A DNA stretch of 63,628 nt, counting the filler, from Sanchytrium tribonematis (Eukaryota): the NCBI GenBank assembly GCA_018985235.1. It is 10 parts of 10 records of this genome, joined end to end, with 100 filler letters (N's around TTAATTAATTAA, not from the genome) between each part and the next. Parts side by side here need not be neighbours in the genome. Positions count along the whole stretch, not along the records: positions 55,084 to 59,309 come from JADGIG010000747.1; 9 more parts are not named here. One strand, given 5' to 3'. The notes beneath the pieces are model-generated. The model was not told the origin of the DNA, made no database searches, and worked only from the letters and a program-made list of their open reading frames with translations. Positions 8,559 to 63,200 of the stretch are shown here, one piece after another. Made by a program: the position numbers and the translations under genes. Position 1 is the first letter of the stretch, and each line of letters opens with the position of its first letter.

Positions 8559-9885
8559 TTAAGTGAATTTTAATTTACGCCATAATGCAGCTTTTATAGA
8601 GTTGAACTCATCCTTGTTATTTAAAAGAACCGAATTATTTTCTTGCGCTCTTCTAATCAAATAAGGCACAACCGATTCCAGTGGCCCAAATGGAACCTAT
8701 ATAAATATAAACTACATATTTGTATGCTCTATAATTTTGTTTTGCATTGTTAAACGTCATGGTATCATGCATGCCTAGTAACTGTCCTAAAACGGCACTC
8801 TTTTTAAAGTCTTTAAATAGCTTCTGAGCCAGAATCATGGATTGCTTGTTATGAGACGCGATAATGTGAGTACTAGTTGGTTTCTTTTGAACGTAATTAT
8901 GCAAAATGTTTATCGCGGAATCAAAATCTTTATGAGTATTTTCAATGTTATCATGAATTGGAGAATCATAACTCATTTCTAATGCTCTTTTGCGCTCGCT
9001 TACCATATACGCACCACGCACAATTTTGCAACCAAAAAGAAACTTTTCTTTTTCAGCAAATTCAAGCGACTCTTTTAAATCGTGTATTCCTCGTTTAAGA
9101 TACATTTGGAAAGTGGGTAAAACTACAGATTTTTCGTGGTTGTATTCCTTAGCTAATAACATAGAAATGACACTGATCGCAGGTTGGTAGTAGCTTTGTT
9201 CGGCATCTATAGTAACTTGAGTTCTATGTTGTGATGCATAGTCAATTATATCTTGAACTCTGTGGTATATTCTTTTGAAATCCAAAAGGTCTCTTTCGGA
9301 ACACTCTATCTTTTCGTTTAAATATTTATCGCTTTCTTCAGACTCAAAAATTCGCAACAATTCTTGCTTTCCGTGTTTCTTTTCAATATCTAAAATTAAA
9401 TTTGTTACTCTTTTTAAGGCAATTGTCGGTCCCAATGCAGTTAATTTAATAGCGGAGAAGTCACCTAAGCAGGAAGACTTAAGAACTTCACCATGAGTAT
9501 CAGCAAGAATATGTTGTCTATTTCGTTCCTGAATAGAGTCAATTAGAACATCATCTTGTTCGACTGAGTAATCTGCAATAGTTCCGATATTCAGCTGCTG
9601 AAGTTTAATCATTGTAGCGCGAAGATCGTCGATTTTTTCACCACCGCAAAAGACCTTGAATAATGTATTTCTTAAAAACCAATGACCCACAAAATGATCA
9701 TACATCCATGGTTTAATGTATTCTGGTGGAAATCTTGAAAGATTGTATGTTAAATAATATTGAAATAATTTTGGCCATTGGTATTCATCATATAAAGATT
9801 CTTGATTATATCGTGATATGTCTAACATATAAGCAGCTGTAGCGATTGCTGGTGACCATCGTACAGCCCTTCTAAAAAAATTCAT
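8559..9885 (-). CDS. PUT1: Proline dehydrogenase, 2 exons (9885-8716, 8696-8559), 435 aa
   Basis: IDAEQSYYQPA, KIVRGAYM, ASHN and GQLLGM motifs. Removing the 19-nt intron restores the conserved YKYVPFGP...PYLIRRAQEN C-terminus. Confidence 0.93.
8697..8715 (-). other. 19-nt spliceosomal intron GTAGTTTATATTTATATAG (phase 0)
   Basis: Excision restores YKY^VPFGP in proline dehydrogenase. A 16-nt alternative donor would add an extra Val and fits the consensus less well. Confidence 0.85.
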
Positions 9886-13079: not shown

Positions 13080-13712
13080 TTATTTTGACTTAGATTGAGG
13101 GTCCAACAAGAGTGCCGTAGCCTGTGTGATTCCATTGACTTCATCATTGGTATCTTTCTTTAGAAAATCTTTTATTTGAGCATCGTCGAGGTCTTGAAAC
13201 GGATTTTTCGAAAGACAATGACAACAAATTAGCGCGTCAGATTTGATATTTTCGCAGCAAAACGAGCACTCGTCTTTCTCGTCGTCTTTATAATGTTTTT
13301 GTAAGTAGTGTAATAATGTATTAGCTAAAAGGTAACAAAAGAGAGAAACTAATATAAATGTAATTACAGAAGAGCAAACCGCTCCTAGATTCAACGTTAT
13401 TAAGCCATTTTTTTGTGCTTCAAGTACTGTTGTATATGTAGTCCCATTATATCCTTTTAAAGGAACATATGAATTTTCTAAATTACTCGTTCCCATCAAA
13501 CCAATAATTGGAGATAAGATATTGGAAACTATAGAATTGATAATGGTATTAAAGGCTGTGCCCATACATAGGGCAATGGAAAGCTGAACAATATTTCCCT
13601 TATTAATAAATTTTAAAAAATTTTGAGCTGCTGTTCTTGGTGCTTCAATTCCTCTTCGGATACCTCTTCTTGCAATGCTCGTGAATCTGACGTCCGGAAT
13701 GGAAATAGTCAT
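13080..13712 (-). CDS. mscL: MscL-family channel, copy 2 (no intron detected)
   Basis: FLKFINKGNIVQLSIALCMGTAF; shares the NLEN.Y.PLKGYNG loop with copy 1; CSFC...CCHC tail. Confidence 0.88.
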   Translation of the reverse strand: MTISIPDVRFTSIARRGIRRGIEAPRTAAQNFLKFINKGNIVQLSIALCMGTAFNTIINSIVSNILSPIIGLMGTSNLENSYVPLKGYNGTTYTTVLEAQKNGLITLNLGAVCSSVITFILVSLFCYLLANTLLHYLQKHYKDDEKDECSFCCENIKSDALICCHCLSKNPFQDLDDAQIKDFLKKDTNDEVNGITQATALLLDPQSKSK

Positions 13713-14519: not shown

Positions 14520-15417
14520 TTATAGCTTTTCTGTCAGCTCTGGAACAGCTTTGAATAGATCTGCGACAAGACCATAGTCAGCCAACTCCATCATGGGACA
14601 TTCTGCATCCTTGTTAATAGCGACAATGACCTTAGCATCTTTCATTCCAGCCACATGCTGAATAGCGCCACTGATTCCAACTGCAATATATAGCTCAGGA
14701 GCTACAACAACACCAGTTTGGCCGACTTGATAGGCGTTATCAACATAGCCAGCATCCACAGCTGCTCTTGAGGCTCCTATGGCTGCGCCAAGTTTATCTG
14801 CTAGAGGAGTAATAACACTAAGTGAGAGACAAATACGTTTTGAAATTTTCCGCGGACTTGAGAGCGCGCCCTCCAGAGACCACAACTTTTGCCCCACCCA
14901 GTTCTGGTCGATCTCCTCCACTGGTTTGGACATTAGTAGTCTTGACACGAGGTTCAGATAATTTGATTTCTTCTATTTCACCACTCGATTCTTTCAACGA
15001 TTCTCCTGTAAATGCCGTTGGTCTAATGCTAAAAAGAATTTGATCTTCATTAGTTTTCACCTGAGATACAACATTTCCTGCAAACATGAGGCGCGTGAAG
15101 TCCTTAGATCCCTCAATTTTAGTTATGTCACTTATCATGGATTTACCCAAAATAGCTGCTAATCGAGGAAGTACGCTTCTTCCTTTGGAATCGTGGGCCA
15201 TAATGATGTGTGTGTATTTTTTAAAATCGATTTTAATACCATGTAAGTCTTCTGGCTTTAAGTCGCGGTTTAGTAAAAAATGTTTTTTTGTAGTGTCGGG
15301 AGCTAATTTTTTGTGAGACAAGACGCTAATGTCTTTTCCGATTTTCTTCGCTGCAGCAGCTGATTGAGGAGTTGGATTAATTAACAAAATTTGTCTGAGA
15401 ATGACATTGTTAAACAT
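14520..15417 (-). CDS. ETFA: Electron transfer flavoprotein alpha subunit, 2 exons (15417-14837, 14817-14520)
   Basis: Two ORF-track halves ([15 protein letters not shown] and [19 protein letters not shown]...QVGQTG) are joined in frame by a 19-nt intron. Confidence 0.95.
14818..14836 (-). other. 19-nt intron GTATTTGTCTCTCACTTAG (phase 2)
   Basis: Excision gives ENFKT^[10 protein letters not shown]. Confidence 0.9.
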
Positions 15418-21750: not shown

Positions 21751-23503
21751 CTAGGCTAGTGCTTCATTTAAACTTTGAAAAAATCGATCACCTACTAGTG
21801 CCGCCAAACCACTTCTAAATATCTTCTTTTGACAACTTCTCCTCATTTTAACAACGCTTACAAGAATATTTCTTTCGTGATAACTTTTTACCACTTCGTA
21901 AAGAATTTCAATTGCACTAAATAAATCAAATGTACGTTGAATCAACTCTTTTCATATTACCTATATCAAATATTATATGATGAATTGCTGCTTGTGAAGG
22001 ATGGTCTGAGGGATGATGTTCCAAATGACCATGGGCTTCTAATCGATGTACCCGTTCCATCATTTCAGCTGAATTTGCAAAGTGCAGAGACTCATCAATT
22101 TGTAACAGCAAAACACCGTCTATTCCTTCAGATTCATCAGGAAACTCCGAAAGGGCAAGATACTCGTCGCTAGTACCATGCCGCCTTCCTAAAAGTGTGA
22201 TCTTTGGAAGTGTAGTATTTCTAACATTAAGTAATAATGCAATTAATATAGCAAATAATGCTCCGTATTCAATGCTTATAGACAAGGTTATTATAAATAC
22301 GACGATACTTATAACAATATCTTTCCAAGCATGTAATTTAATTAAAAATGATATTTTTTGTCGCTCGATTAAATTATAGGCAGCCTGAGTTACAATACAT
22401 GCAGTAGCTGCCAGAGGCAAATATTTGAAAGCTGGTAACAGTAAAAGCGTGCTTGTCAAAACGAACAGCGCTACAAAAATCTGGCTAATAGGAGTCTCTA
22501 CATGGCTATTATGTGAAATCATGCTTCTTGCCAAAGATCCATAAACTGGCATACAGCCAAAGAATGAACCGACAATATTAGTCAGACCTAAGGCCACTAA
22601 TTCACGATTTCTGCTTATAGCGTACCCTTTTATACTCGCAAAAGATTTGGAAGCAATCATGCTTTCCATAAATCCAATAACAGCAATAACACCAGATGGT
22701 CCTATAAGGCTTTTCACAGAAGTGTCTAGATTTTTTAATGGTAGAGACATCTTAAATAAATCACCATGTACCTCGATATTGCCAACAATTGCTATGCCAT
22801 AAGTCTTAAAATTTAGCAAATAACTGAAAAATATGTTCAAAATAACCAAGGGCAAGATCACAGGAACCTTAAATTTTAATATTTTTGAAAATGAATTATA
22901 TAAAATAATAAATATCAAGCAGAAACAGCTTAAAAGTAATGTTTGAATATGAAGCGTATCCAGTGTTTCAATTTCGCTCCAAAGTAGCTCGAGTGGCGAA
23001 GAACCGCGTGCAACATGTATACCAAACATAAACGGTATTTGTTCTATAATAATTGTGCAGGCTACCCCACTTATAAATCCAGCAATAATTGGCCTCGAAA
23101 AAATTGCATCCAAAAATCCAAATCGCATTAAACCCAATAATAAAGTTATAATTCCGCATATAAATGCAATGCTGTTTTCATGCTTATATTGACCAATTAA
23201 AATACAGACAACAGCATCCAGTCCAATGGATAAACTATGGGAAGATCCAAAAATTGCATATATAAATAAAGGAAAGATTGTACTCTTTAATCCAACAACA
23301 GTGGGTATTTTTGCTAATGTCATGGTATAACTTATAACTTGTGGAATTAAAATACATGTCAAAGTGAGCGCTGCTGTAATATCTCTCAGGAATTTGGTTG
23401 AATTGTAATCTTGCATCCATTTCATTATGGGGACATAATATGTCGATCTTCGTATTATGTGCTCACTTGAAGAGAGTAGCGGTGATAAGGAATTAAAATT
23501 CAT
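21751..23503 (-). CDS. SulP/SLC26 anion transporter with STAS domain, 2 exons (23503-21936, 21916-21751)
   Basis: NRELVALGLTNIVGSFF, GSLARS, LHFAN. The STAS motif VDST^AIEIL is completed by the intron. Confidence 0.92.
21917..21935 (-). other. 19-nt intron GTACATTTGATTTATTTAG (phase 2)
   Basis: Excision joins the two ORF-track pieces in frame within STAS. Confidence 0.88.
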
Positions 23504-23523: not shown

Positions 23524-24334
23524 TTAAAAAAACCATCCCAGTCTGTTAGCACCACTATATGTATCTTTTGGCTTAGAAGTAGGAACTGGCCCGGAACTAC
23601 TGCTTCCGGAATTAAGTCCAGAATTTGGATTTGGCCCAGTACAATTTCCCCACCATTTAGATGATACTGAATAGCATGAACATAGATCATTAAATGGTTT
23701 GTTTGTGGAATTAAAATACCATTGAAGTGTTGCACTAGTGAATTTAGATTCTGCAAACTCATTCAGAATCACAACATCGTTTCCTAAAGATGAAAGTACA
23801 GATTTGATTTGGGCTTCAGTAGAATTGTAATCTACACTATCTTTGCTCCAAATTGTAGGGTAAAAATTAGACGAAAGCAATTGCTGGTTGACCGAGTCGC
23901 TTAGAGCAGTATTAGTATATGCAACAAATTTTGGCACTGCTCCTAAATTTTGAAACCAAACGTCTTTCTCTGCATTTAAGGTTGCAGAAATGTCATTTGT
24001 AAATTTTTTTATAACATTCATTCCTAATCTAAATTAAAAAAATTTACGTATGTCCATAGTTAGCAATCTGCTTCACCATATTCCAATCTGTGGTTGGGCT
24101 TGTTTCAATCATAAATGTTCCCTTAATTTTTAGCTGGGTCAATGCATTCAAAATATCAGCAGTGTGAGCAGAAGGTCCGTTGTAAAAGGTAAGTGCAACT
24201 CCACTTCCACATGTACTTTTGGCGGGAGCTGTTTCTGAGCATGTAGCAACTGGTACTCTTCGTTCCAAAATATGTTCAGGTGTAAAGTAAAACACAGCGG
24301 CTAATAAAACGAAGATACTAACAATTTGATACAT
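23524..24334 (-). CDS. Secreted NodB/chitin-deacetylase-fold (CE4-like) protein, probably non-catalytic, 2 exons (24334-24048, 24028-23524)
   Basis: Signal peptide; VALTFYNGPS (cf. TFDDGP); LKIKGTFMI; GHT^LGMN; WSKDSVDY. Confidence 0.8.
24029..24047 (-). other. 19-nt intron GTAAATTTTTTTAATTTAG (phase 2)
   Basis: Excision fuses ORFs 24044-24334 and 23524-24021 in frame at the GHxIG-like motif. Confidence 0.88.
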
Positions 24335-24541: not shown

Positions 24542-25495
24542 CAATCATTAGTATTCCCGGAATTAGATCAAGTGCAGCAAGATTGGATCACAAATGATCC
24601 ATATACGAGCATGTTTTGTGATGTTTTGAAGTGGATGCGTGTGGTATTTTTACAGGATACTGCTATATTAATACATGATAATGATTATCAGCATCATTTA
24701 TTATTTGAACATCCAATTTTTAGCGATACTAGGTTTATATCCTTTTCCAAGGCATTAAATCAGCACGAAATGGTTTACAAGGCATTACCAATCAAAACCA
24801 CAGCATTTCTAGAACAAGCGACACCAGAAATATGCCAGATATTGAAGCAGCAGCATCAATTAATTACTTCTATGCATCAGGAAATCATCGACTCTAAAGG
24901 GCAAATAAACATGCTAATTGGCCATGTTGCATGTTTAAATAATCCATTTATTAATCAACTAGCTAATAATCTTGCTCAGAAGACACCAATTGCATCCAGA
25001 CCATGTACTCCACCCACGCATTATCCACTGACTCCTCAACCTTCAAATCGTCCCAATAAGCAAGTTGATTCTGTTTATTCATCAAATCATTCACGAAATA
25101 GCTCATTTAATCCCATAAATGTCATAAATAATCCATATTCTACTTTTCCTTCTTCCCCAAAGAAATGCCAAATAAACAAGCATATTACTCAAATAAGAGA
25201 TCTAATTAAGTATTGGTATGATGGCATTAATGGCAAACCTAGTGTGATGGAGTTGAATGCCGAATTTGGGACAGCATGGCGTAAATCTGCTGCTTGTAGG
25301 CAATATTATCGAGGGAGAAATCTGCTTATGAACGAGATAAATAGAATGGCTGTAAAGCACAGTATATCAAGGGAAGATGCTGGAATGATGTTGGAGCAAT
25401 ATCATCAGCAAATGAATCCTAATGCTGCTAATGCAATCCCATGGTTGATAAAATACATCAAGGATAATCCAGAGAATATGAGAATATACAAATAA
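24542..25495 (+). mobile_element. 5'-partial Crypton-F-like / Ndc10-II + GCR1_C ORF (transposon or domesticated derivative)
   Basis: LKWMRVVFLQDTAIL...LFEHPIFS (end of the Ndc10-II / Crypton recombinase region) plus WYDGINGKPSVMELNAEFGTAWR...RQYY (GCR1_C). Confidence 0.7.
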
Positions 25496-29974: not shown

Positions 29975-32900
29975 TTATAGCTTTCGAAGCTGCTCCATAT
30001 GACACGTTATTAAAAATTTATACTTATCTTGAAGCTGTGCGATGTTTGTCGACAGCATCTTGATGAAGTAAATTGGTTCTGGCACAAAGTAGTAGTCCAG
30101 TTTTCCTTGTTTCCAAGAATTGGTCATGTAGACCTTTTCTCCATTTTTAAATTCGGGGAGACCCTTTTTAGAGTTTAATTGTGTTAAGCGCTTTTGCCTT
30201 TTGTTGTAGGCTCTTTGATTGGCGTCTCGCCGTAGCTCTGTAATGTCATTAGAAGTAAAAATTCTTTCCCGTTTGATAGGATCTATTTTGCTTTTGAATA
30301 ATAGCATAGAAGGAGCCTCGCCTGTGGCGGAGTTAGTCGCATTCTTCATCGAAACTAATGCTAAGTGAAGTGATTCTGTCCAGGATAAATTTTGTGAATG
30401 TTTCGAAGTTTTACATCGAGTTCCCTGTGTTTTCTTTCTACTGCATTGCTAAAATGTGCATATGGGGCTACAGATTGTATTTCTATTCCCTCTTCCTTCA
30501 AAAAGAGTCTAAATTCTTTTGAATTAAAGGGTACGTTATCGGCTACAATTTCTGTAGGAGGTCCAAATATTTGGATCCAATGCCTTTTCAGTGCTAATAT
30601 GGCGTCTTTGGAACCATTTCGAGCTACTGGGACCGCATTTATAAATCTAGTGGAATCGTCTAGTATTGTAAATAAATACTTACAGTCTTCCTGATAGTTT
30701 GCAGGCTCTATTGGCAAAGGACCTTTGAAATCAATATAAATTCGGTGCAAAGGCTGTGCTGGAATACGTGTCTTGAAATGATGTTCCAGAGTTGGCGCCT
30801 TAGACAATAGGCATGTCTCACAACTTTTGACAAATTTTCTAATTCTGGTCTGTTTACCAGAAAAGTAATAATCTTTCAAGTAAATTGACACTTGTGCGGA
30901 GCCTGCATGTGCCGCTATATTACTATTGTGTGCTATTGATAGCAGACTATCAACAAGATGTTCAGGTACATAAAGCTTTTTACCCGACTTGTGTGTTTTA
31001 TAAATGATTCCATCTAATTCTTGAACATGTGCAGTCTTGTTATTTAATAGAGATTGAAGAGATAAATCTTTACTTTGTTCAAGCTGCCAGTTGATTGTCT
31101 CGAAAGTCGTTTTTACTGTTGGATTCAATTTGGTATCCGTTTCTTGAGAATCCACCGACTTTTGACTACTTAACTTCATACTGTTCAAAGTAGAGCTACA
31201 TGATGGTTCGTAGCCGTAACGGCTTAATGCGTCAGTGACTGTATTTTGAGGGCCCGGAATATATGCTATTGTCAAGTGGTATTGTTGCAATTTGCAAATC
31301 CATCTTGCTAATCTACCGGACTGTTCTGAGTCAAATAACCATCGAAGATTACCGTGATCTGTAAAAACTGTCACACTGGTACCATATAGAAATGGTCTGA
31401 ATTTATCTAGAGCGTAAAGTATTGCTAAGCATTCTTTTTCCCTGACATCATAGTTTTTCTCAGCACCTTGTAGCGTACGGGAGATAAACCAAACCGGCTT
31501 TTTATCCTGAGCTAATACTGCACCAACACCATATTTACTGGCGTCTGTGTACACGTAAAATGGTTGATCAAACTGTGGATGAGCCAGAGTTACTTGGTCG
31601 GATACTATTACATCTTGGAGAGTACGGTAAGCCGCCTCACATTCTTTAGACCATTTAAATATTGCGTTTTTCTTTGTTAAAGCCTGTAAGGGCTGACTAA
31701 TTGTCGCATATTTGTGGATAAAGCACCGATAAAAGCTAGTTAAGCCTAGAAATTGTCTAACTTGGGTGACTGTTTTTGGAGATGTCAAGGCCTTCACCGC
31801 ATCAATCTTCTCGTCGCTGGCTTGTATGCCATCTCAGTTACTTTGAACCCTAGGAAATTGATTCTAGTCATTCCCAGACGACATTTCTTAGCGTTAAGGG
31901 TAAGACCGTGCTCTTCCAATTTGCTGAGTACTCCTTTGAACTTTCCCAAAATTTCTTCAAATGTAGATGCAAAAATCAGAAGGTCGTCTAAATAGATCAA
32001 AAGATCTTTTCCTATCATTTTATCGAAAATTTCATTCATTAATCTTTGAAAAGTAGCTGGAGCTGTTGACAATCCAAATGGCATTACTTTGAATTGGTAA
32101 AGTCCAAATGGTGTCACAAATGCTGTCTTTTCTTTATCTTTTTCGGCTAAATTGATTTGCCAATATCCGGACTTTAAGTCCAAAGAAATAAAGTATTTTG
32201 CTCCATGTAGATTTGAGAGTAAGGATTGTAAATTGGGAAGAGGATAAGCGTCGAATTTAGTATGCTTATTTAGCTGTTTATAATTAACGCAAAATCTTAC
32301 TGACCCATCAGGTTTTGGTATCAAAACCACCGCGGATCTCCAATCCGATTTTGAAGGCTCAATTTTGTCGTCAAGAAGCATTTTTTCGCACTCGGTCCTT
32401 ATCATTTTAATTTCCTCAGGGCTTAGCCTTGGAATTCCTGATCTGACCGGTTCACAATCCGTTCTAATATGATGTCTTGTTTTGACTTTTGTTTTATTTT
32501 CTGAACCAAAGCAAAGTGGAAATTGTTTAGCAGTTTCCATCATTTGTTTTCTTTCGTTCTCTGTCAAATCATCATTTAAGACTAAATCAAGTGGAGTATT
32601 TTCTTCCTTGTCGTTTGGCAGTATGATATCTTCACTATGTAAGTCATAATCATTAGTCATATCTTTAAGAATTTCTTGATACTGAAATTTCTTAAGTTTG
32701 CTGTTCTTAGCTGTACTAACATAATTGCACATGGCAGTCTGTACAGCTACTTCATCTGAACTGCGATTCATTCGAATTGGAATCCTGTTTATCCAAATAA
32801 AGTTTCATTCAAAATCAATGGTCATATTTTGTAATCTCATGCTATCCCTACCGACAATAATGCTAGACGCAAGATTACAAATAATATGAAAATGCTGTTT

Positions 32901-37675: not shown

Positions 37676-38886
37676 TAAAAACTTAGGATAGCCGATTGGT
37701 TGATGTAATATAGCGTGAAAGAGTTTGTCCACATTTTCAGGATTTCCAAATGGAGGCCTACCACACAACATTTCATACATTACAATCCCAAGTGCCCACC
37801 AATCTACTGTTCTTCCATAAGTCTCATCTTCCAATACTTCTGGGGCCAAATATTCTGGAGTTCCACAAAATGTAGAGGTTGTATCATTTCTACCAATACC
37901 TTCTTTACATAGACCAAAATCCTAAATGAGGTAAAATTTACAGTAACTTTAATGTGACCATCACTGTCTAGAAGCAAATTTTCCAATTTTAAGTCACGAT
38001 AAACTATTCCTTTGGTGTGTAGATATCCGAGTGCTAGTGTTATTTCCGCGACATAATATCTGCTTCTTTCTTCCGAAAATTTTCTTTCTTTCGTTATATG
38101 ATAAAAAAGCTCTCCTCCGTTGATATACTCCATGACGAAATACAAGCGATCGTTGGTCTGAAATGAATAAAATAATTTGACTAAAAATGGGTGATCAAGT
38201 GATTGTAGAATACGGTTTTCTACAAGAACATGTTCAATTGCATCGTCGTCTGATAATCCATTTTTTTTAATGACTTTAATGGCAAAGAATTCAGGGTCTG
38301 TTGCTTTAGGTGTTTTGTGCTTAGCTAACATAACTTTTCCATAGTTTCCTTTTCCAACAACTCGTAAAAATTCAAAATCTTCTGGCTTCATAGTCTTGTC
38401 GAAAGTATTTAAAGTTTCGCCAGCACTGCCACTAGTTCTTGCTGCGTTTATGGCCTCGACCCAATTATCCCTATCCGTCTTCGTGTCTGATTTCATGTAT
38501 CTTTTCTCTCCATTAGGAAGTGTTAATTCGAAACAGGTATTTCCAATTTTGTCATATAATTTGCATTCTGCCCCATTCAATAAAAAACAATTTGTTGGTG
38601 ATTTTTCTTCTTGAGGATCCTTGAAGTAATATAATTCATTGGGGTACAGAACAAACCATCTCGCTCTCCAATTTTTAATGTAATTTCCTTGTTTAACTAA
38701 CCAACCTTGTTTAAGAGGTGCTTCTGTCTTGTCATTAACAGTCACATCTTGGAGATTACGTGCTAGAGATTTTGGAGCTTCTTTTACTGCTGGAGCAGTA
38801 TTATCTTTTGGTGACATGGGTAATTTTTTTATTAAGCCTCTTTTTTTTGATACAAATTTCGGGTATCCAGAAATCACGGAATTCAT
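37676..38886 (-). CDS. AKT: AKT/PKB-like kinase (PH + AGC kinase), 2 exons, 3' partial
   Basis: [34 protein letters not shown]; after the intron DFGLCKEG...[16 protein letters not shown].. YGRTVDWW. Start may be 38886 or a later ATG. Confidence 0.9.
37922..37941 (-). other. 20-nt intron GTAAATTTTACCTCATTTAG (phase 0)
   Basis: Excision restores HIKVT^DFGLCKE exactly. Confidence 0.93.
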
Positions 38887-42178: not shown

Positions 42179-43067
42179 ATGATACTCTTTTCTCTTCTAC
42201 TCGCTCAAATACTCCATTCCAAATTACAACTAGTCTACAGACACCCAACCAGTCCACGATATAAATCAACCCCATTTTATCCAGAATGTCCCACTCAATA
42301 TATTGCATTTCATCAATCTGCATCAAATGAAAATGAAGCTAAAGCAATGATTGAATCATGCATTAATTTTGCCATAGTTCCAGATGCAATTCAAATAGCA
42401 CATCCCAAAATAGTCTATAATCCAATCATGCGCCATCATTTCAAGCATACCATCCAATTATTATCCCATGACTCTTTATTATCATTATTCAATCAATATC
42501 ATCAATATCATGTAGATATCATGATGACTATTGATTATAAATTGTATTTAATGTATAGAGACAGTATTCTCACATTGTTTCAAGATGTGATTCAAAATGA
42601 TCTTGCAAAATTCAATGCCATTCAAAGCAGTATCACTGTCAATGACAAATATGGATTAATCTATTGGTATCAATGGGTATTATGGATTAATCTATTGGTA
42701 TCAATGGGTATTATGGATTAATATCATGCAACCCAATTTAATATCATTAGAAATGACAAATAATATTATAGTTTCAATAGATGCCAATTTTGAGACATTT
42801 CAATATGATTTATTTGATATTGTGAATATGGTTTATAAAGTGGACCAAAATAATTATTGTGGATTGCTATTTATTGAGTCACGATTTAATTGGTATAGGC
42901 AACAATTTTGTAGAAATAAAGAAAATAGGAAAGAATGTTTGAGCAAATGGCAGACAGTTAGAAATGACCGTACTATTTATGATAGTTTCAAAAATATATG
43001 TGATGAATTGTGGAATGAAGCAGCAACAGATCAAATTAAAAACATGGGATTGAATGTTAAAGAATAA
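42179..43067 (+). pseudogene. Secreted orphan gene split by a 31-bp tandem duplication
   Basis: MILFSLLLAQ start. Deleting one repeat copy joins ORFs 42086-42721 and 42726-43067 in frame (WVLWINIMQPN). Confidence 0.7.
42650..42722 (+). repeat. Perfect tandem repeat, 31 nt x 2.35
   Basis: TATGGATTAATCTATTGGTATCAATGGGTAT at 42650 and 42681, then TATGGATTAAT at 42712. Confidence 0.95.
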
Positions 43068-43990: not shown

Positions 43991-45319
43991 TTATTGACTA
44001 TCATCACTCATATTGGATCCTCTTCTAATAATGCCCCAAGTAGGTTTATGCGTACTGGTTCCAAAATCCCTAGTTTGTACTTTGGGTTTCTGTAATGATT
44101 TTGCAAAATCAAAAGTAGTTTCTCCCATTTCAGCCATATCTATTCCTTTTTCTAAATCAGCCAATTCTAATTTCAAATTTAAACCGGGGAAATGATTGAT
44201 GCAATATAAAATGAGGGCTGTCATGCAAAATGACCATAAGAAACAAATAATACAACTGAGTAATTGGTATCCGATAATACCTTCTCCATCTACCAATCCG
44301 GATTGTTTATTAGGGTGGATCATGCCATAAGACCATTCTCTACTTGCGAATATACCTGTTAATAAATTACCGACGATGCCACCAATGCCATGAATCGTAA
44401 AGACATCTAAAGTATCATCTAATTTCCAAATGATTTTGAGTAAACTCATTCCAAAACAAAGCGCACCTCCGATTAATCCAAATATAATTGCGAATCGTGG
44501 GTCAATTAAACCAGCTGCAGGTGTGATGGAAACTAAACCACTAATGGCACCAGAACAGAATGCAATAGCACTGAATTTCTTGGTTTTTATGTAATTTAAT
44601 CCCATCCAGGAAAGTGAGCCAGCTGCTGCTGCAATATTCGTGGCCATGATGGCATTGGCTGCTTGATTACCAGCTGATCTGGCACTACCACCATTAAATC
44701 CATTCCATCCGAACCATAGAAATAGAGTACCCATTAAAACATTAGCAGGTGAATGTGCTTCAGATTTCTCCATTTTATTTCTACCCAGCATCAAAGTATA
44801 TGCTAATGCAGCACTACCAGATGCAATATGGACGACAGAACCACCAGCAAAGTCTAATACACCCATATCATCCAAGAAACCATTCCAAACCCAATGCGCG
44901 ATAAAATCATAAACCAATGTGGTCCAAATAAACACAAATACGATTTTGGGAAGTAATCTTGTTTTATCTGCACCAGCACCGACTATTAATGAGGGTGTTA
45001 AACACGCAAACATCATTTGATAAAACGCAAATCCAAAATCAGGAATAGATCCATATGAATTATCTTGTCCTGTTAATGAGCCATATCCCGCATCTTCAAT
45101 AGATCCAATAAATGAGTTACCTTGTTTACTGAATACCAGCGAGTATCCAAACATGAACCACTGGATGCTGACGATAGAGCATGTCATAAAACATAACAAG
45201 AGAATACTTAATGCTGCTTTTGAGTTTGTGAGACCATTATAAAAGTAACCGAGACCTGGAATCATGATGAATACTAGGTAACTGCATAAAAGCATAAAAC
45301 TCGTGTCACCAAGAGACAT
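43991..45319 (-). CDS. Ammonium transporter (Mep/Amt)
   Basis: DFAGGSVVH, LWFGWNGFNGGS, DDTLDVFTIHG. Confidence 0.96.
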   Translation of the reverse strand: MSLGDTSFMLLCSYLVFIMIPGLGYFYNGLTNSKAALSILLLCFMTCSIVSIQWFMFGYSLVFSKQGNSFIGSIEDAGYGSLTGQDNSYGSIPDFGFAFYQMMFACLTPSLIVGAGADKTRLLPKIVFVFIWTTLVYDFIAHWVWNGFLDDMGVLDFAGGSVVHIASGSAALAYTLMLGRNKMEKSEAHSPANVLMGTLFLWFGWNGFNGGSARSAGNQAANAIMATNIAAAAGSLSWMGLNYIKTKKFSAIAFCSGAISGLVSITPAAGLIDPRFAIIFGLIGGALCFGMSLLKIIWKLDDTLDVFTIHGIGGIVGNLLTGIFASREWSYGMIHPNKQSGLVDGEGIIGYQLLSCIICFLWSFCMTALILYCINHFPGLNLKLELADLEKGIDMAEMGETTFDFAKSLQKPKVQTRDFGTSTHKPTWGIIRRGSNMSDDSQ

Positions 45320-45681: not shown

Positions 45682-46287
45682 ATGTTGACTAGTTTAATTG
45701 AATTAAATAAAGCACAAAATACTTTAATGAGTGAATGGAGGGACTCAGGTGTAGATATGGATGATGTTTCTAAGAATTTAAAGGGTATTTCTAAGAAATT
45801 AAAAGATAAATTGAAAAGAGTAGGTTTAAAAACCAAGAAGTGGGCAAGTAAAGTGAGGGATTTTATTAAAAAGCCAAAATGCACTCAATTAGAGGACATG
45901 TGTTCTCAATTGCAGGAATTATCCACAAATCGTAAAATATTCAAATTTATAGTCAGTGAGTATTATTTCGCACATAATCTGCCTGGTGCTCGATATTTGG
46001 CTAATGTGGATTATGACAGATTCATTCCTCATTTTCTAAAAGACCAAAATTTTACACTTCCTCATAAAATGGCAGTTCAATTATACAAAGAAGTGATTAA
46101 TAGAAACATATATCACAGATTATTTTGAATCACTGTAGAAATGTGCCAGAATTTTATGTAATCTTTGATTCTATAGATTTAATTGAGTTGTTATTCTATA
46201 TTTATAATGAATCATTAGACCGACTGCTGCAAAGAATGACCAAAAAGGTCTTTGACATTTCAAAACAGCTGAAAAAAGCTGCAAATG
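45682..46287 (+). CDS. Hypothetical protein; frame change near 46120; 3' partial
   Basis: 148-aa ORF followed by an overlapping frame that stays open to the gap. Confidence 0.45.
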
Positions 46288-47081: not shown

Positions 47082-50000
47082 ATGGCATCGAAATTACATT
47101 TTCCGTTGCTGAGAGATAATACGCCGAGAACTGTAGATAAGGTTGAATTTGGAATATTTAGCAAGTCTGAAATAGACAGAATCTCACAAGTGGAAATATT
47201 AAGTAGTGAGCTGTACAACTATACCTCCATCAAGGAAGCTGTTCCATACGGACCATTAGATAAACGTTTAGGATGCTCAGAAAAAAATTCAATATGCGAG
47301 ACCTGTAATAAGAAAATGGAATTTTGTGTTGGCCATTTCGGAGTTGTTAAATTATCTTTACCTATATTTCACTATGGATTCTTCAAAGGAACACTAGCTA
47401 TCCTTCAATGCATATGCAAAAAATGCAGTAGAGTTATGGTTGACGAGCAATTAAAAAAGCGATATTTGAAGAGATTCCGAACTCCTGATTTGGAAATGAT
47501 AACAAAAATGAAAATATTCAAAGATATTCAGAACAAATGTAAAAAGCAAAGTGTATGCATATACTGCGGTTATATTAACGGCACAGTAAAAAAAGCAGGC
47601 GGAATGAAAATTATTCATGTAAGGTTTTCAAAAGTAAACTCTCAAAGTACCGCCGCGGATGAATATTTACAGGATTTGAAAAGTGTTATAATTGTGAACG
47701 AGGCTTTAAAGCCATATATTAATAGGTGTGAAGAGGAAATCAATCCATTAATGGCATACCGACTTTTTGAAAAAATGTCCAATGATGATTCTGAGCTGAT
47801 GGGTCTGGGTAAGATCTCGAGACCAGAAGACCTTATTATAACATTTTTTCCTGTTCCTCCTAACCAGACTAGGCCTTCTGTTGCACAAGATGACAAAACT
47901 AGCAACGAAGATGATCTGACAATTAAGCTGAAAGAAATTATAATGGTAAATAGTGTTATCCGAGCCGGCATCATTGATGGACAACCAATTAACAAAATAA
48001 TGGAACAATGGGATACCCTTCAAACAGCAGCTGCTTTGTATGTCAATGCGGAGTTACCAGGATTTAACGCTACAACGTCATCGCTAAGGAAACCTGCTAG
48101 GGGTATTGTGCAAAGACTGAAAGGTAAACAAGGGAGATTTAGAAACAATTTGTGTGGTAAGAGAGTAGACTTTAGTGGTAGAACCGTTATTAGTCCCGAC
48201 CCTAATATGAGGATAGATCAATTAGCAATACCAGAACTTATCGCTAAAAATTTAACTTTCCCAGAAAAAGTTTGCTATCAAAATATCCATCTTTTAAAGC
48301 AATTAATTTTGAATGGACCTAACAAACATCCTGGTGCATGTTATGTAGTGTCCAATGGTATAAAAATTTCATTAAAATATGGAGATCGTGAGAAAACAGC
48401 GAATAATTTGAAATACGGTGACATTGTGGAGAGGCACATTGTTGATGGCGATATTGCCCTATTTAATAGACAACCATCTCTTCACAGAGTTTCAATGATG
48501 GCGCATTCTGTTGTAGTTAAGCCTTGGAGAACATTGAGATTTAATGAATGTGTTTGTAGTCCATACAATGCTGATTTTGATGGTGACGAGATGAATCTCC
48601 ATATTCCTCAAACCTTAGAAGCAAAGACGGAGGCCTTATTGCTGATGGGTGTCGAAAATAACATTTGCACTCCGAAAAACGGCGAAAATCTGATCGCAGC
48701 TACGCAGGATTTTATCACTTGCTCTTATCTGCTATCTCAAAAGGATGTCTTCTTCAGCAAAGCCGACTTTTGTCAAATTTGCGGTTACATGGAAACTTCC
48801 CTATCTCAAATTGACATACCTCCACCAGCTATCGTGAAGCCCCAGCGACTTTGGACAGGTAAACAAGTGTTTGGTGTTTTATTAAAACCTAACAAATATT
48901 CAAAGGTAAATATCAATCTTGAATGTAAAACGCGGTCGTTTACAAAATGTTTTCCTCCTGATTTATGTCCTCAAGATGGCTGGTTGGTTATACAAAATAG
49001 CAAGGTCATTTGCGGGGTTTTTGATAAGGCTGTAGTGGGAGATGGTAATAAGAATTCCATATTTTATGTAATACTTCGAGATTTTGGTCCAAAATGTGCC
49101 GCTGAATGTATGAATAGACTTAGTAAGCTTTCTGCTAGATTTATGGGTGAACGAGGCTTTAGCATTGGTATAAATGATGTTTGGGCAGATACTGCTTTGC
49201 AGCAGAAAAAATTTGAACTTGTTGAGGCAGGTTATCTTGAATGTACAGACAAAATCGAGGAATATAAAAAGGGAATCCTAGAAACCCAACCTGGTTGCTC
49301 GGAAGAAGAAACTTTGGAAAATGTTTTAAGTGGAATCCTCTCAGGCATACGAGAAAACGCTGGTCAAATGTGTCTTAATGACTTAAATAGATACAATTCT
49401 CCAATCATCATGTCCAGATGTGGCAGCAAAGGCTCAAAGCTAAATGTTGCGCAAATGGTTAGTTGTGTTGGTCAACAGATTGTCAATGGAAAGCGTATTC
49501 CAGACTCGTTTGATTTTAGGCCCCTACCTCATTTTCCTCGCCATGACAAGACGCCACCCAGCAAGGGCTTTGTTCGAAACAGTTTTTTTAGCGGTTTGAC
49601 TCCCAGCGAGTTCATATTTCATGCAGCTTCTGGCCGTGAAGGCCTCGTCGATACTGCCGTCAAGACGGCCACTACTGGTTACCTGGCCCGTCGTTTGATG
49701 AAGACAATGGAGGATCTGACCGTTTCATACGATTATTCCGTTAGGACTCCAGTTGGAAACATGATATCATTCAAATATGGAGATGACAAATTAGACCCAT
49801 TGAACATGGAAGGCGATGGCAAGCCTGTGGAGTTTTCTCGTAATTTATTGAATGTGCTGAATAATAAAAGCATCGTTCGAGGCAAGCCAATGTCGGCCGA
49901 TGAAATAGAGGAATTTTGCGATATTGAAACTCAAACGCAGTACTGGCAAAAAAATTGCGATTCTTTGTTTATTGCAGATCTTACCCATTTTATAGAGAAA

Positions 50001-50635
50001 GACATATCAGGCAAACTCAGGAGACTACATGCTAACCCGGTGCTTTCTCAAAAAGAAATTCATGGAATGTTTCAATTTACAGAAGCGGATCTCATAGAAT
50101 TCCTAAAGGTGTGCTTTCTGAAGTACATGAAAAGTAAGATAGAACCCGGAACTGCCTGTGGTGCAATTGGTGCTCAAGGACTAAGTGAACCAGGAACTCA
50201 AATGACATTAAAAACTTTCCATTTTGCGGGTATTGCGACCATGAGTATTACTTTGGGTGTTCCTAGATTAAATGAAATTATTAATGCTAGCAAAAGCATT
50301 TCCACGCCAATTATTAAAGCTTCTCTTGTTTCCAAAAAAAGCGAAGTTTCTGCTAGAATTGTTAAAGGAAGAATTGAAAGAACTACATTGTCTGAGATTT
50401 GTAATTACATTGAAGAAGTCTACAAGCCTGGTGAATGTTTTATTGAATTAGAAGTAGACATCAATACAATTAATAAGTTGCAGCTTGAGATTAAGCCAAA
50501 TGACCTGGTTAATACTTTGATGAAATCCAAATTAAAATTAGCAGATGATCAAATCCACATTTACAAAAACAAGGTAAGAATTTATGCGTCAAAAGAAAGC
50601 GGTGAAATGTCGTTTATTCTCAAAGATTTAAAACG
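47082..50635 (+). CDS. RPC1: RNA polymerase III largest subunit (3' partial)
   Basis: NADFDGD, WRTLRFNECVCSPY, GTQMTLKTFHFAG, LGVPRLNEIINASKSISTPII. Confidence 0.95.
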
Positions 50636-53973: not shown

Positions 53974-54983
53974 TCAAACTGGGCTATGCATCCCAAGTTT
54001 TGTGTTGAATTCTAATTTGGATCGTCTTTGCCAACGGCTCCATCTGGCTCGATCTTTTTGTCTCAAAAAATACTGAATGGCAAGCATAATAAAAAGGAAC
54101 ACCACAAAAGAAAGCACCCAATAATAGATCGGAATTCTTTTACCAAGACTAGTTACATCCTCGATATAAAAGAAAAACCATAAAACTGCAACACTCATGC
54201 TAATAATACCACTGACTATCCAAGACTTGGTAAATGGGTTCACATCGCTAAACCTAGAGTTTCTGGAAGAAAATTGAGCCGAAAGAACAATTATATAGAC
54301 GCTGAGACACAAGTTTGCATAATGCTGTGCTAAATTGTGACTGTTTAAATACTGAAAGGACCTAAATTAGTGACCAGTACATTATGTAATTAATTAAATC
54401 GAATATTAAAAAAACCAGACTACGAGGTATAACTGCTAGTAGAAGGCTGGCAACTTCTTTTCGTTGCTTCTTATTTCTCCTCATATACAATTTCATAGAA
54501 TTCTCATTTTCCAGAGACAAAAATGCAAGAGACTGCAGAATTATAATGATGTTTATCGGTACCAACGAATTCAGCGTAAAGCGGTACTGATAGTCTGAGC
54601 ACTGTATGATGAGTGCAGAACAGAGCATATTTAATTGAATTAAAAAACCATAAATTACAAACATTTGTAAATTAGATGAAATTGTTCTTGCGTCTTTAAT
54701 TACGTCATAAAGAGCAAACAGACTCGCATCATATGATAGAAACAAGTCTACAAAATGATTGCTGTGCATAATCAGTTTCCCTTCTTCCGAATTTAAATCT
54801 ATGCTTCTTGGAACAAGCCCAACTGAGATATCAGCGGCAGCAAAGCATGGCAAAAAACGTGAATTTAGACAAGACCCTAGCACAGCAACACTTTCTCCCC
54901 AATACTGAAAAATACCAAGCATTTCTGTTATAGATGTTGGACTGGCTTCTGCGAATAAAGAAACATGTAAAGGTATATCATCG
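53974..54983 (-). CDS. TMEM94: TMEM94-like P-type-ATPase-related membrane protein, 5' partial, 2 exons (to 54381; 54361-53974)
   Basis: DDIPLHVSLF...IFQYWGESVAVLGS and terminal QRRSKLEFNTKLGMHSP; the halves are joined by a 19-nt intron. Confidence 0.85.
54362..54380 (-). other. 19-nt intron GTACTGGTCACTAATTTAG (phase 2)
   Basis: Excision puts ORF 53974-54312 in frame; CTAAT branch-like motif. Confidence 0.87.
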
Positions 54984-56347: not shown

Positions 56348-56822
56348 CTAGTTGAGAATAAAATCTATAGATCCCAAATGCATTTGCCTGTGTTCTGCAA
56401 CTAAAATATCGAGCCCATTTACTTTTACTGTTTTGATTTTCATAGGTTCTTTATGGAATGATTTAATGTGCTTATTTAAATCAAATCTACGTTAGTTAAA
56501 AGTACCTCCATTTAAATTTGACTTTACAGGGCAGACAAATAGCATCTATGATGTTGAAATGTTTTTTGGAGTGATTTCCCATATTATTGCTGCCTTTGAC
56601 TTGATGATAACAATTATTCCATAAACAGATTCCCAGCCGTCTTACCTGATGGTCTCTGCGCACATGTTGAAAGCATTCGGCATCATTATTAAATATTCTG
56701 TTACATTTCAAATTATTGCTGGTCCACAAACAAATTGATTTCATACTGGTAGGGACTAGACTAGTGAGGATATCGTGTTCATTCGATGAGTCTTGGGGGT
56801 CGATGGACTCGATTTGATGCAT
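56348..56822 (-). CDS. Three-finger C2H2 protein of PacC/Gli-like architecture, 2 exons (56822-56506, 56486-56348)
   Basis: C.W....C..H..DH and C.W..C..H...H. The intron completes finger 3 as CLPCKVKFKWR^FDLNKHIKSFH. Confidence 0.85.
56487..56505 (-). other. 19-nt intron GTACTTTTAACTAACGTAG (phase 2)
   Basis: Canonical ACTAAC branch sequence; excision supplies both His ligands of the finger. Confidence 0.93.
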
Positions 56823-60204: not shown

Positions 60205-63200
60205 ATGAGTAGAAAAGCAGTTTATACCGCCGACGAAAAAAGACCAGGTGTGGACGATATGACCTTACTCACAAATCTTACAAATGATGAGATCGTGAAG
60301 AATTTGCAAACAAGATTTCAATCCGGCGTCATTTATTGTTACATCGGGTTCGTGTTGATCGCAGTTAATCCATTTAGGGATCCTGGGGTATACACGCCAG
60401 AAATTCTTAATTCTTACAGAGGAAGAATTAGAATTGAAATGGCACCTCATGTCTACGCTATCGCTGAATATATGTACAAACAAATGATACAATTTCGAGC
60501 AAACCAGTGTTCAATCATAAGTGGTGAGAGTGGGGCAGGCAAGACCGAAAGTGCTAAAAGAATTTTGCAATACATTGCAGAGGTTTCGATTAAAAATACA
60601 AACGACACAAAAATGACACATTTGAAAGACATGATTTTGGCAACAAATCCTTTACTTGAGGCATTTGGAAATGCCAAAACTTTAAGAAATAATAACTCTA
60701 GTAGATTTGGAAAATATTTGAATATAGTGTTTGATTTACGAGGTTTGCCGATTGGTAGCATCATAACGAATTACTTACTGGAGAAGGGAAGAGTCGTTCA
60801 ACAAACTAAGGAAGAGAGAAATTTTCACATATTTTATCAATTTTGCAAGGGTGCAACTGCTCAATATAAGCAAGACTTCGGAATTGCTGGTCCAGAATGT
60901 TATGTTTACACTATGACTTGCACGGACATCGCCCATGTCGATGATTCAAAAGATTTTAAGGAGGTTGTAGATGCTATGAAAATTATAGGTATTCCGTCCA
61001 CGGATCAATACGACGTGTTCAGAATTTTGGCAGCAATTTTATGGATTGGAAATTGTCAATACAGAGAAAATGACAAAGGAGAAGCCACAATTCCAGATGA
61101 AAGTGCATTGCAATCAGTTGCGTATTTACTACAAGTGGATCAGAACACGTTAAAAATTGCCTTAACTACCAAACTAGTTGTTACAAGTCAAGGTTCTAGG
61201 ACCTCCTTTTACTATTCCCCATTAAATTTCACACAAGCTACTGCTGTTCGGGATGCATTAGCTATGTCTTTATACTCAAGACTGTTCGATTGGATTGTAG
61301 TACGGTTAAACGAAGCTTTAAAACCAATTGGCGATATAGAAACGTCAATTGGAATTCTTGATATTTACGGTTTCGAAATTTTCGAAAAAAATAGTTTTGA
61401 ACAGCTATGTATCAATTATGTCAATGAAAAATTACAACAAATATTTATTGAGCTTACTTTAAAAGCTGAACAAGAAGACTATACGAATGAAGGTATACAA
61501 TGGACTCCGATTAAATATTTTGACAACAAAATTGTATGTGATCTAATTGAGGAGAAAATTCCTGCTGGCGTATTTGCTGTATTAAATGATAGTGTTGCTA
61601 CCGCTCATGCAGACAGCGAAGCCGCTGATAAAAGTTGTGGAGATAGATTGAGAAACATTTCCAATCCACATTTTCAGCACCGGGGAATCAAATTTGTAAT
61701 TAATCATTACGCTGGTGATGTCACCTACGACTTGACAGGTATAACAGACAAGAACAAAGACACTATGAATAAGGATCTATTAGAAATGTTAAAGTCCAGT
61801 CCAAATAGCTTGATACAAAGAATATTCCCTGAGGAAGTTGATAGGGACAATCGAAAACGTCCATCGACAGCCAGCGATAAAATTAAAAATTCAGCCCAAT
61901 CTTTAGTAACAACACTCAAAGGTTGCGAGCCAAGCTACATACGGTGTTTAAAACCAAATGCCAATAAAAGTCCAAAAGAGTTTGACAATAAGATGATGAA
62001 TCATCAAGTGGTATATCTTGGGCTTTTGGAAAACATTAAAGTCCGTCGTGCTGGGTTCGCGTATCGTCAGACCTTTGAGATATTTATAGATAGGTTCTAC
62101 TTATTGACTCCAAGAACAAGCAAAGGAGGAGATCTTATCTGGAGAGGATCGAAAAAAGATGGTTGCAAAGCTATATTACAGGATACTGGAATTGCAGAGT
62201 CAGAATGGCAGCTGGGTATTACCAAAGCTTTTATTAAAAAACCCGAAACTTTATTTACTTTGGAGAGTATGAGAGACAAATTTTGGCATAGAATGGCGTT
62301 CAGAATACAAAAACAATGGAAAAAATACATTGCTTTAAAAAAAGAGAGTGTCATTAAAATTCAAAGATATTGGAGAACATATAAGGGTTACGGGGGCTAT
62401 GACGACAAGCGGAAAATTGGGCACCAGTTGGTAACAGGCAAAAAAGAGAGAAGCAGATTGAGTATTCTCTACTATCGAAAATTTCACGGCGACTATTTGA
62501 ATGTGAATGGAGAAAATGGTGATTTTTTCAAAGATCCAGCCCAGATGGAGCCGATGGAGGTATGCACTTTCAGCGCAAGAATATTTATTTTGGTTCAAAG
62601 GATGCTAAGAAGTGATAAACTCAGTATAAGATATATGGTCATGACAAAATCGCATCTATCTCTAATTCAAATTAAAGAAGAAGGTTCGGACATTGTCCCT
62701 TATCTTTACAGAAAAATCGCTCTGGCAAATTTGAAAGGCATTACAATGTCAAAATATGTTGACGATATTATTGTGCTTCAATTTGAAAAGGAAGATGATT
62801 TAGTAATTTCATCCCTTTTAAAAACGGAAATTGCCACACTTCTTAGTCGATTGTTTAAAGTCTCTATTACTTTTATTGAGGAGCGAATTGTTGTACTTGA
62901 TAAAAAGGAAAAGGTTTTAAGTAAGATAAAGTATCAATACCAAGAAGATTTCAAAGGTTGGCTTTTCAAAAAGGGAAACATCACAGTTGGCAAAGGGCTT
63001 GATCCTACTACAAGTATTATTTTTTAACTTAGAAATCAACAATCCGCCTAAAACTCTTCAATCTGCTAAAGTGATTCCCAAGAAACCACCCGTTCGAAAA
63101 ACCAGTACAGGTCCAGTCCAACCTCAAAAGCAAAATATTGCATTACCTGCACCTAAGCAACAAAGTATTTTACCTACTCCTTCGCCTGTACAATCGCCTC

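What the first reader, a model, noticed from the sequence alone, without database searches (positions are those of the whole stretch)
56487..56505. Branch point fused to the acceptor: invariant A at -6 in all ten introns
Seen: the last 9 nt of the ten introns are TTTATATAG, TTGACCTAG, CTCACTTAG, TTTATGTAG, TTTATTTAG, TTAATTTAG, CTCATTTAG, CTAATTTAG, CTAACGTAG and TTAACTTAG. All ten match YTNAYNTAG. This intron carries the textbook ACTAAC. There is no room for a polypyrimidine tract, the donor is conserved only as GTA, and the acceptor is always TAG. Inference: the lariat loop would be only 14 nt and splice sites would be defined by a ruler-like geometry. From memory, a similar -6 branch A is reported for Stentor tiny introns, which would be convergence.
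Basis: partly seen in the sequence, partly recalled or inferred. Interest (0 to 1): 0.8.

Follow-up and report, generated by a model that had tools for sequence, protein, structure and literature searches.

The report
Nineteen-base introns in a sanchytrid fungus
Ten genes of an early-branching fungus related to the algal parasite Amoeboradix are interrupted by 19-20-base segments that all carry an A six bases from their end; these are likely spliceosomal introns whose branch point is fused to the acceptor, and they would be among the shortest introns in fungi and are read through, unspliced, in the public protein predictions.

Summary
Confirmed. All ten introns are present (nine of 19 nt, one of 20 nt). 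GTA…YTNAYNTAG occurs 9 times at 19 nt against 0.42 in shuffles. Removing them restores Pfam domains exactly at the junction (Pro_dh 249|250, Pkinase 140|141), and the intron at 56487-56505 splits a C2H2 finger that is unbroken in 17 of 19 aligned homologs. The window groups with the sanchytrid Amoeboradix gromovi (100/99). Unspliced public proteins of relatives decode to introns of 19-23 nt with A at -6 in 8 of 9 tails tested. The fixed distance is therefore branch-to-acceptor; length and the GTA donor vary. No RNA could be examined, so splicing and the branch nucleotide are inferred. The architecture is known from Yarrowia (same -6 A) and Stentor (-6 A, GUA donor). I found no description of sanchytrid introns; published sanchytrid proteomes were called intron-blind. 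The scan noted longer short introns in Rozella and Neolecta, not these. New variant of a known kind.

The parts
56487..56505 (-). 19-nt phase-2 intron in a C2H2 zinc-finger gene; putative branch A at 56492
   Evidence: 17 of 19 aligned homologs are unbroken across the site and P0152 decodes to a 20-nt intron at the same site
56506..56822 (-). exon 1 of the zinc-finger gene (105 codons; ends inside the last C2H2 finger)
   Evidence: public protein P0145 is this exon plus a short read-through
56348..56486 (-). exon 2 of the zinc-finger gene (the two histidines of the finger and the C-terminus)
   Evidence: aligns to the C-termini of unbroken homologs
8697..8715 (-). 19-nt phase-0 intron, proline dehydrogenase
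   Evidence: Pro_dh profile 249|250; same site in Amoeboradix P0122 and in P0124
12612..12630 (-). 19-nt phase-0 intron, MscL-like gene
   Evidence: spliced product aligns through the junction to the intron-free paralog at 13080-13712, score 404 against 320 unspliced
14818..14836 (-). 19-nt phase-2 intron, ETF alpha
   Evidence: exon 2 matches ETF_alpha from position 24 of 81; same site in P0141-P0144
16255..16273 (-). 19-nt phase-0 intron, ubiquitin-conjugating enzyme
   Evidence: UQ_con 1-134 of 140 ends at the exon end; rank 1 in the motif-blind scan
21917..21935 (-). 19-nt phase-2 intron, sulfate permease STAS domain
   Evidence: STAS profile 55 | split codon | 57
24029..24047 (-). 19-nt phase-2 intron, polysaccharide deacetylase-like gene
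   Evidence: Polysacc_deac_1 3-59 of 124 ends at the exon end, exon 2 not matched; rank 1 motif-blind
37922..37941 (-). 20-nt phase-0 intron, PH-domain AGC kinase, directly before the DFG motif
   Evidence: Pkinase profile 140|141
54362..54380 (-). 19-nt phase-2 intron in a membrane-protein gene cut by a contig end (weakest case)
   Evidence: joins 215 open codons to 129; no informative Pfam match; rank 3 motif-blind
63014..63032 (+). 19-nt phase-1 intron, myosin I, between the TH1 and SH3 domains
   Evidence: Myosin_head and TH1 upstream, SH3 downstream; rank 1 motif-blind

Best explanation
The ten 19-20-nt GT..AG segments are likely U2-type spliceosomal introns of a sanchytrid-related fungus, in which the A six bases from the end is predicted to be the branch nucleotide, so that branch site and acceptor form one 9-nt signal, YTNAYNTAG. 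Inferred mechanism: U2 pairs with the YUNAY element and bulges the A; this A attacks the 5' G to give a 14-15-nt lariat loop; the acceptor is the first AG after the branch, always 5 nt on, so no downstream polypyrimidine tract or scanning is needed. The donor carries little information (GT, usually A at +3, never G at +5, then a U-rich run) and is likely picked by its distance from the branch, with a floor near 14 nt. Lengths not divisible by three would make unspliced transcripts frameshift.
For: Shown: spacing-specific enrichment, 9 against 0.42. Domain continuity at the junctions. A gene finder given no motif and flat lengths of 14-60 nt had 19 as its commonest length, 4 of 23 calls at one penalty and 3 of 8 at the other. 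In a motif-blind scan of 58 ORFs the motif intron ranked first for 7 of the 9 intron-bearing ORFs that were included. Homologs are unbroken across the zinc-finger site (17 of 19). In 8 of 9 read-through tails of relatives the best decoding has Y(-9), A(-6), Y(-5) and T(-3) forced by the encoded residues, with T(-8) allowed in all 8 and forced in 2. From the literature: the same geometry in Y. lipolytica (PMC2483917, PMC2911113) and Stentor (PMC9505925). Recalled: yUnAy is the general U2 branch consensus.
Against: No RNA, lariat or snRNA data: no reads were examined and Rfam finds no snRNA in the window. Ten introns from 63 kb only. The relatives' introns are orthologs of three window introns, not independent origins, and are decoded from protein. 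Two of the 8 (P0123, P0144) need the stop codon to be the acceptor, P0143 wins by a small margin (19 against 15), and P0156 did not fit (its only solution has A at -5). A is also common at -10 (6 of 10) and -7 (4 of 10). The 54362 intron has no homology support. One frameshift near 46110 has no motif and is unexplained.
Confidence: 0.85

Rival explanations
1. The introns are real, but YTNAYNTAG is an extended acceptor motif read by a protein (as with nematode TTTCAG), and branching occurs at another A, such as -7 or -10.
For: A at -10 in 6 of 10 and at -7 in 4 of 10. No branch mapping. Most introns match TACTAAC at only 3-5 of 7 positions.
Against: Only -6 is invariant (10 of 10 here, 8 of 9 decoded in relatives), and it is flanked by T(-8) and Y(-5) in the U2 register. 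Four window introns have no A at -10, and a branch at -10 would shrink the loop to 10 nt.
Confidence: 0.08
2. The segments are relic introns that are seldom spliced, or frameshifts in decayed genes, so the truncated proteins are what the cell mostly makes.
For: Short microsporidian introns are spliced below 20% on average (PMC6349667). No transcripts were seen here.
Against: They interrupt core genes inside essential motifs (kinase DFG, ETF FAD-binding domain, proline dehydrogenase C-terminus). The downstream exons stay open and conserved across relatives at 55-71% identity. All have GT..AG ends and one shared motif.
Confidence: 0.05
3. The motif is a selection artefact: the first reader kept the AT-rich GT..AG segments that fitted the pattern.
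For: The 9-mer alone is at background frequency (34 against 37). Introns lacking the motif, or stop-free introns of 3n length, are harder to see.
Against: Motif-blind scans recover the same introns. The other high-scoring joins are a 31-nt tandem duplication, retrotransposon frameshifts, two adjacent genes and one unexplained frameshift. Relatives' introns were chosen by position, not by motif.
Confidence: 0.02

Closest known systems
Yarrowia lipolytica U2 introns with juxtaposed branch point and 3' splice site (PMC2483917, passages; PMC2911113, passages)
   Same: Intron-poor fungus; no 3' polypyrimidine tract; ACTAAC followed by 2 nt and AG, which puts the branch A at -6.
   Different: Y. lipolytica introns are 41-3,478 nt (median 204), with a strong GTGAGT donor, mainly CAG acceptors (TAG about 10.5%) and a 5' position bias. 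Here they are 19-23 nt, with a minimal donor, a degenerate branch, TAG throughout and 9 of 10 in the 3' half.
Stentor coeruleus and other heterotrich tiny introns (PMC9505925, first part and passages; PMC13685798, passages)
   Same: Putative branch A at -6 with a 5-nt tail; donor conserved as GUA; U-rich; weak branch consensus. The commonest Stentor intron ends in the same 9 nt as the proline dehydrogenase intron here.
   Different: Ciliate; 15-16 nt with a 10-11-nt loop; mostly 3n lengths; 5'-biased in Stentor (Fabrea salina is 3'-biased). Here 19-23 nt, no 3n length seen, and a clearer YTNAY.
Encephalitozoon cuniculi introns (PMC3629993, passages; PMC2483917, passages)
   Same: Holomycotan parasite; very short introns; branch motif CTAAYTT.
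   Different: 22-76 nt, about 37 per genome, strict GTAAGT-type donor. The passages I saw do not give the branch-to-AG distance; the logo is in a supplement I did not open.
Bigelowiella natans nucleomorph, Paramecium and Mikrocytos tiny introns (PMC2483917, PMC10245619, passages)
   Same: Similar size class; donor reduced to GT(A) in the first two.
   Different: PMC2483917 reports no branch-point signature in B. natans or Paramecium. Mikrocytos introns are 16-17 nt and in a rhizarian.
Trichomonas, Giardia and Entamoeba invadens fixed branch positions (PMC2483917; bioRxiv 10.1101/2022.06.08.495308, passages)
   Same: Branch anchored at a fixed distance from the acceptor in intron-poor lineages.
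   Different: Branch A at -8, and strongly conserved donors.

Membership tests
U2-type spliceosomal intron | GT..AG ends whose removal restores the reading frame and protein | tested here: met
   homology support for 9 of 10, none for 54362-54380
U2-type spliceosomal intron | Branch-site motif (YUNAY) near the 3' end | tested here: met
   10 of 10 in the window; 8 of 9 decoded tails of relatives
U2-type spliceosomal intron | Removed from RNA through a lariat at the branch A | not testable with these tools
U2-type spliceosomal intron | Host genome encodes U1/U2/U4/U5/U6 and core spliceosomal proteins | not testable with these tools
   no whole genome held; no Rfam match in the window
Yarrowia-type fused branch-acceptor intron | Fixed branch-to-AG distance, no downstream polypyrimidine tract | tested here: met
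   A at -6 at lengths 19, 20 and 23
Yarrowia-type fused branch-acceptor intron | Strong six-base donor and ACTAAC branch | tested here: not met
   G(+5) 0 of 10; ACTAAC in 1 of 10
Heterotrich-type tiny intron | 15-16 nt, GUA donor, A at -6 | tested here: not met
   A(-6) and GTA are shared, but the length is 19-23 nt and the host is a fungus: works like it, is not a member
U12-type intron | RTATCCTT donor and TTCCTTAAC branch (recalled) | tested here: not met
   none of the ten has these motifs
Introner (mobile intron family) | Near-identical intron copies | tested here: not met
   all ten differ in their middles; +4 takes all four bases
Sanchytriomycota (host lineage) | Groups with a named sanchytrid in protein phylogeny | tested here: met
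   adenosine kinase clade with A. gromovi and two unnamed proteins, 100/99; 67% and 71% identity against at most 54% and 35% for named outsiders. One tree, one gene; 30 of 120 listed proteins used.

The most novel reading that the evidence does not exclude
Sanchytrids carry a phylum-wide, so far unannotated class of 19-23-nt introns, the shortest modal length in Fungi, numbering in the order of a thousand or more per genome. They are removed by a remodelled spliceosome that has dropped donor G(+5) pairing and places both splice sites by distance from one branch-acceptor signal, and they are concentrated at the 3' ends of genes, the reverse of the usual pattern in intron-poor genomes.
Probability: 0.5. 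Interest if true: 0.72.

Novelty: new variant of a known kind. Interest (0 to 1): 0.6.

Why it matters
It adds a fungal lineage to the few that approach the lower size limit of spliceosomal introns, and it lands on the same -6 branch geometry as Yarrowia and Stentor, which suggests that 5 nt after the branch A is a recurring minimum. It mixes two classes that PMC2483917 set against each other: intron-poor genomes with strong signals, and tiny-intron genomes with no branch signature. With only about 14 nt for the U6 and U2 helices and no G at +5, it makes testable predictions about U1, U6 and the branching factors. Practically, sanchytrid proteins were predicted with TransDecoder on genomic contigs (PMC8371127), so intron-bearing genes sit in public sets as truncated read-throughs (P0121, P0122, P0140, P0145), which could distort domain-content and gene-loss analyses of this phylum.

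Tried and rejected
No whole genome was held and no sequencing reads were examined, so there is no genome-wide logo and no junction evidence. The one metagenome scan, with myosin I, gave 80 loci at 44-59% best-segment identity, none grouping closely with the window; they were not used further. Rfam: 0 matches. Nucleomorph, myxozoan, apicomplexan and microsporidian origins were considered and dropped. Other motif hits in the relaxed census were set aside as chance: for example 45282-45300 lies in the 5' coding part of the ammonium transporter ORF and 61594-61612 inside the myosin head. Three stop-free 3n candidates in 48.6 kb of long ORFs lie within matched Pfam domains and none has both GTA and TAG; rejected by that argument, not by alignment. 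The 43-nt join at 42708-42750 is explained by a 31-nt tandem duplication. P0156 could not be decoded. Six longer zinc-finger hits were left out of the alignment. Literature: searches for 'sanchytrid'+'intron' and for Sanchytrium/Amoeboradix/introns found no description of these introns; in the two papers 'intron' occurs only in a reference title. Their supplements were not read, and subscription journals are mostly outside the library.

Full report
Setting. The window is AT-rich (GC 30-40%), gene-dense eukaryotic DNA made of concatenated contigs. No whole genome was held. Its adenosine kinase is 67-69% identical to three proteins and at most 54% to the other 116 listed; one of the three is from Amoeboradix gromovi. 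In a tree of 30 of these proteins the window, A. gromovi and two unnamed proteins form a clade with 100/99 support among fungi. Proline dehydrogenase agrees: 71% to A. gromovi, at most 35% to named outsiders. The host is therefore taken as a sanchytrid or close relative. I assign a lineage only.

Observation. All ten 9-mers end GT..AG segments, nine of 19 nt and one of 20 nt. T(-8), A(-6), T(-3), Y(-9), Y(-5) and GTA are each 10 of 10. The intron at 56487-56505 has AACTAAC. GTA plus YTNAYNTAG at 19 nt occurs 9 times against 0.42 in 200 shuffles, while other lengths give 0-2; the 9-mer alone is at background, 34 against 37.4. Among 592 GT..AG 19/20-mers, 34% have A(-6), 11% have T(-8) and A(-6), and the ten with the full motif are these ten.

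Are they introns? Exon pieces scanned separately match adjacent Pfam positions: Pro_dh 249|250, Pkinase 140|141, STAS 55|57. UQ_con and Polysacc_deac_1 stop at the exon end, ETF_alpha resumes in exon 2, and the myosin I SH3 lies in exon 2. The MscL-like gene aligns through its junction to an intron-free paralog next door (404 against 320). The finding's own intron splits a C2H2 finger between its cysteines and histidines. Pfam matched neither exon, but 17 of 19 aligned homologs read straight across (six longer hits left out). The 54362 intron has only open-frame support.

Selection bias. A gene finder with no branch motif and flat lengths of 14-60 nt gave 19 as the commonest length, 4 of 23 calls at one penalty and 3 of 8 at the other; most of its other calls were scattered and probably false. 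A motif-blind scan of 58 coding-like ORFs included nine of the ten intron-bearing ORFs; the motif intron ranked first in 7, second in 1 and third in 1, and there the better-scoring joins shared its acceptor or ran on to a further one. The other high-scoring joins were a 31-nt tandem duplication, retrotransposon frameshifts, two adjacent genes, and one unexplained frameshift near 46110. No convincing stop-free 3n intron was found in 48.6 kb of long ORFs.

Relatives. The public proteins of this lineage are unspliced read-throughs, so their tails encode the intron. PMC8371127 (passages) states that sanchytrid ORFs were predicted with TransDecoder on contigs. I tested every donor offset and every non-3n length from 14 to 40 nt against nine tails: three proline dehydrogenases, four ETF alpha proteins and two zinc-finger proteins. 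The method recovered the true intron from the window's own P0121 and P0140; P0145 ends too early to decode. Eight of nine decode to an intron at or near the window's site, with Y(-9), A(-6), Y(-5) and T(-3) forced by the residues; T(-8) is allowed in all and forced in two. Five are clear (70 against 9 for A. gromovi P0122, 131 against 97, 48 against 12, 45 against -6, 38 against 5), P0143 is narrow (19 against 15), P0123 and P0144 need the stop to be the acceptor, and P0156 does not fit. Lengths are 19 (three), 20 (four) and 23 (one). Donor +3 is A in three, T in two, C in one and open in two; G(+5) is excluded in all eight. These are orthologs of three window introns and are inferred from protein, so they show conservation rather than independent origins.

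Mechanism. Shown: the position and conservation of the motif, the frames restored, the lengths. Inferred: U2 pairs with YUNAY and bulges A(-6); branching gives a 14-15-nt loop (18 nt in the 23-nt relative); the acceptor is the first AG after the branch, 5 nt on. Two introns have an AG upstream of the branch and none has one between branch and end. The donor is weak and followed by a U-rich run (30 of 40), and is likely chosen by distance from the branch, with a floor near 14 nt. Neither splicing nor branching was observed: no reads were examined and no snRNA lies in the window.

Comparison. Y. lipolytica has ACTAAC, 2 nt, then AG, with no polypyrimidine tract, i.e. A at -6, but its introns are 41 nt or longer with a strong donor (PMC2483917; PMC2911113; passages). 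Stentor has 15-16-nt introns with the putative branch A at -6, a 10-11-nt loop and a GUA donor, and retains U2AF homologs (PMC9505925, first part and passages). E. cuniculi introns are 22-76 nt with strict donors (PMC3629993, passages). Mikrocytos introns are 16-17 nt (PMC10245619, passages). Myxobolid medians reach 22 nt (PMC13644364, first part). E. invadens fixes its branch at -8 (bioRxiv 10.1101/2022.06.08.495308, passages). PMC8476143 (passages) and PMC10158995 (passages) gave nothing on introns this short in fungi. So neither the geometry nor the size is a record among eukaryotes. What I did not find in print is any account of sanchytrid introns or a fungal intron class shorter than 22 nt. 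Supplements and most subscription papers were not seen, so 'shortest in fungi' is provisional. Earlier scan notes describe 26-34-nt introns in Rozella and about 38-nt introns in Neolecta (untested here) and nothing for this genome.

Side result. Nine of ten introns lie in the 3' half of their genes (P about 0.011; three genes incomplete), opposite to Yarrowia and Stentor and like Fabrea salina (PMC13685798, passages). With ten introns this is a lead only.

Verdict. Observation confirmed. Real introns about 0.93, branch at -6 about 0.85. New variant of a known kind; interest 0.6.

Noticed in passing
all ten introns: Nine of ten lie in the 3' half of their coding sequence (0.60-0.93 for six complete genes, 0.36 for the deacetylase; three genes are cut by contig or window ends and judged from the part present). 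One-sided P about 0.011. The motif census does not depend on position. Yarrowia and Stentor are 5'-biased; Fabrea salina is 3'-biased (PMC13685798).
   Followed up: partly
intron positions +5..+8: T in 30 of 40 positions and no G at +5 in 10 of 10 window introns or in the 8 decoded relatives; predicts altered U6/U1 donor pairing.
   Followed up: partly
window 12369-12996 and 13080-13712 (-): Tandem pair of MscL-like genes, each with a cysteine-rich tail; only one has the intron, so it was gained or lost after the duplication.
   Followed up: partly
P0123 against window 8697-8715: In this unnamed relative the proline dehydrogenase intron decodes 10 nt further downstream (20 nt, phase 1): possible intron sliding or an independent intron. 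Inferred from protein only.
   Followed up: partly
window 56348-56822 (-): The zinc-finger gene has many short homologs; 17 of 19 aligned lack a break at this site, one decodes to the same intron and one is unresolved.
   Followed up: partly
window 42661-42722 (+): Exact 31-nt tandem duplication at the overlap of two ORFs; it shifts the frame and may be an assembly artefact.
   Followed up: partly
window about 46090-46130 (+): Apparent frameshift between two coding-like frames without the intron motif; unexplained.
   Followed up: no
window 29975-32804 (-): Retrotransposon pol (RT, RNase H, integrase) split over frames near 31830 and 30430.
   Followed up: no
window 9-5404 (-), 47082-50634 (+): A dynein heavy chain (1,797 codons present) and a large RNA polymerase subunit (1,184 codons present) have no frame-breaking intron, in line with about 0.2 introns per gene.
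   Followed up: no
window 24442 onward: Nine spacers (44 N, 12 nt, 44 N) at about 4.35-kb steps: the window is a chain of separate contigs, so gene order across spacers has no meaning.
   Followed up: yes
window 24542-25495 (+), 6850-8556 (+): A gene with NDC10_II and GCR1_C domains, and a tyrosinase with a long proline/threonine-rich linker.
   Followed up: no
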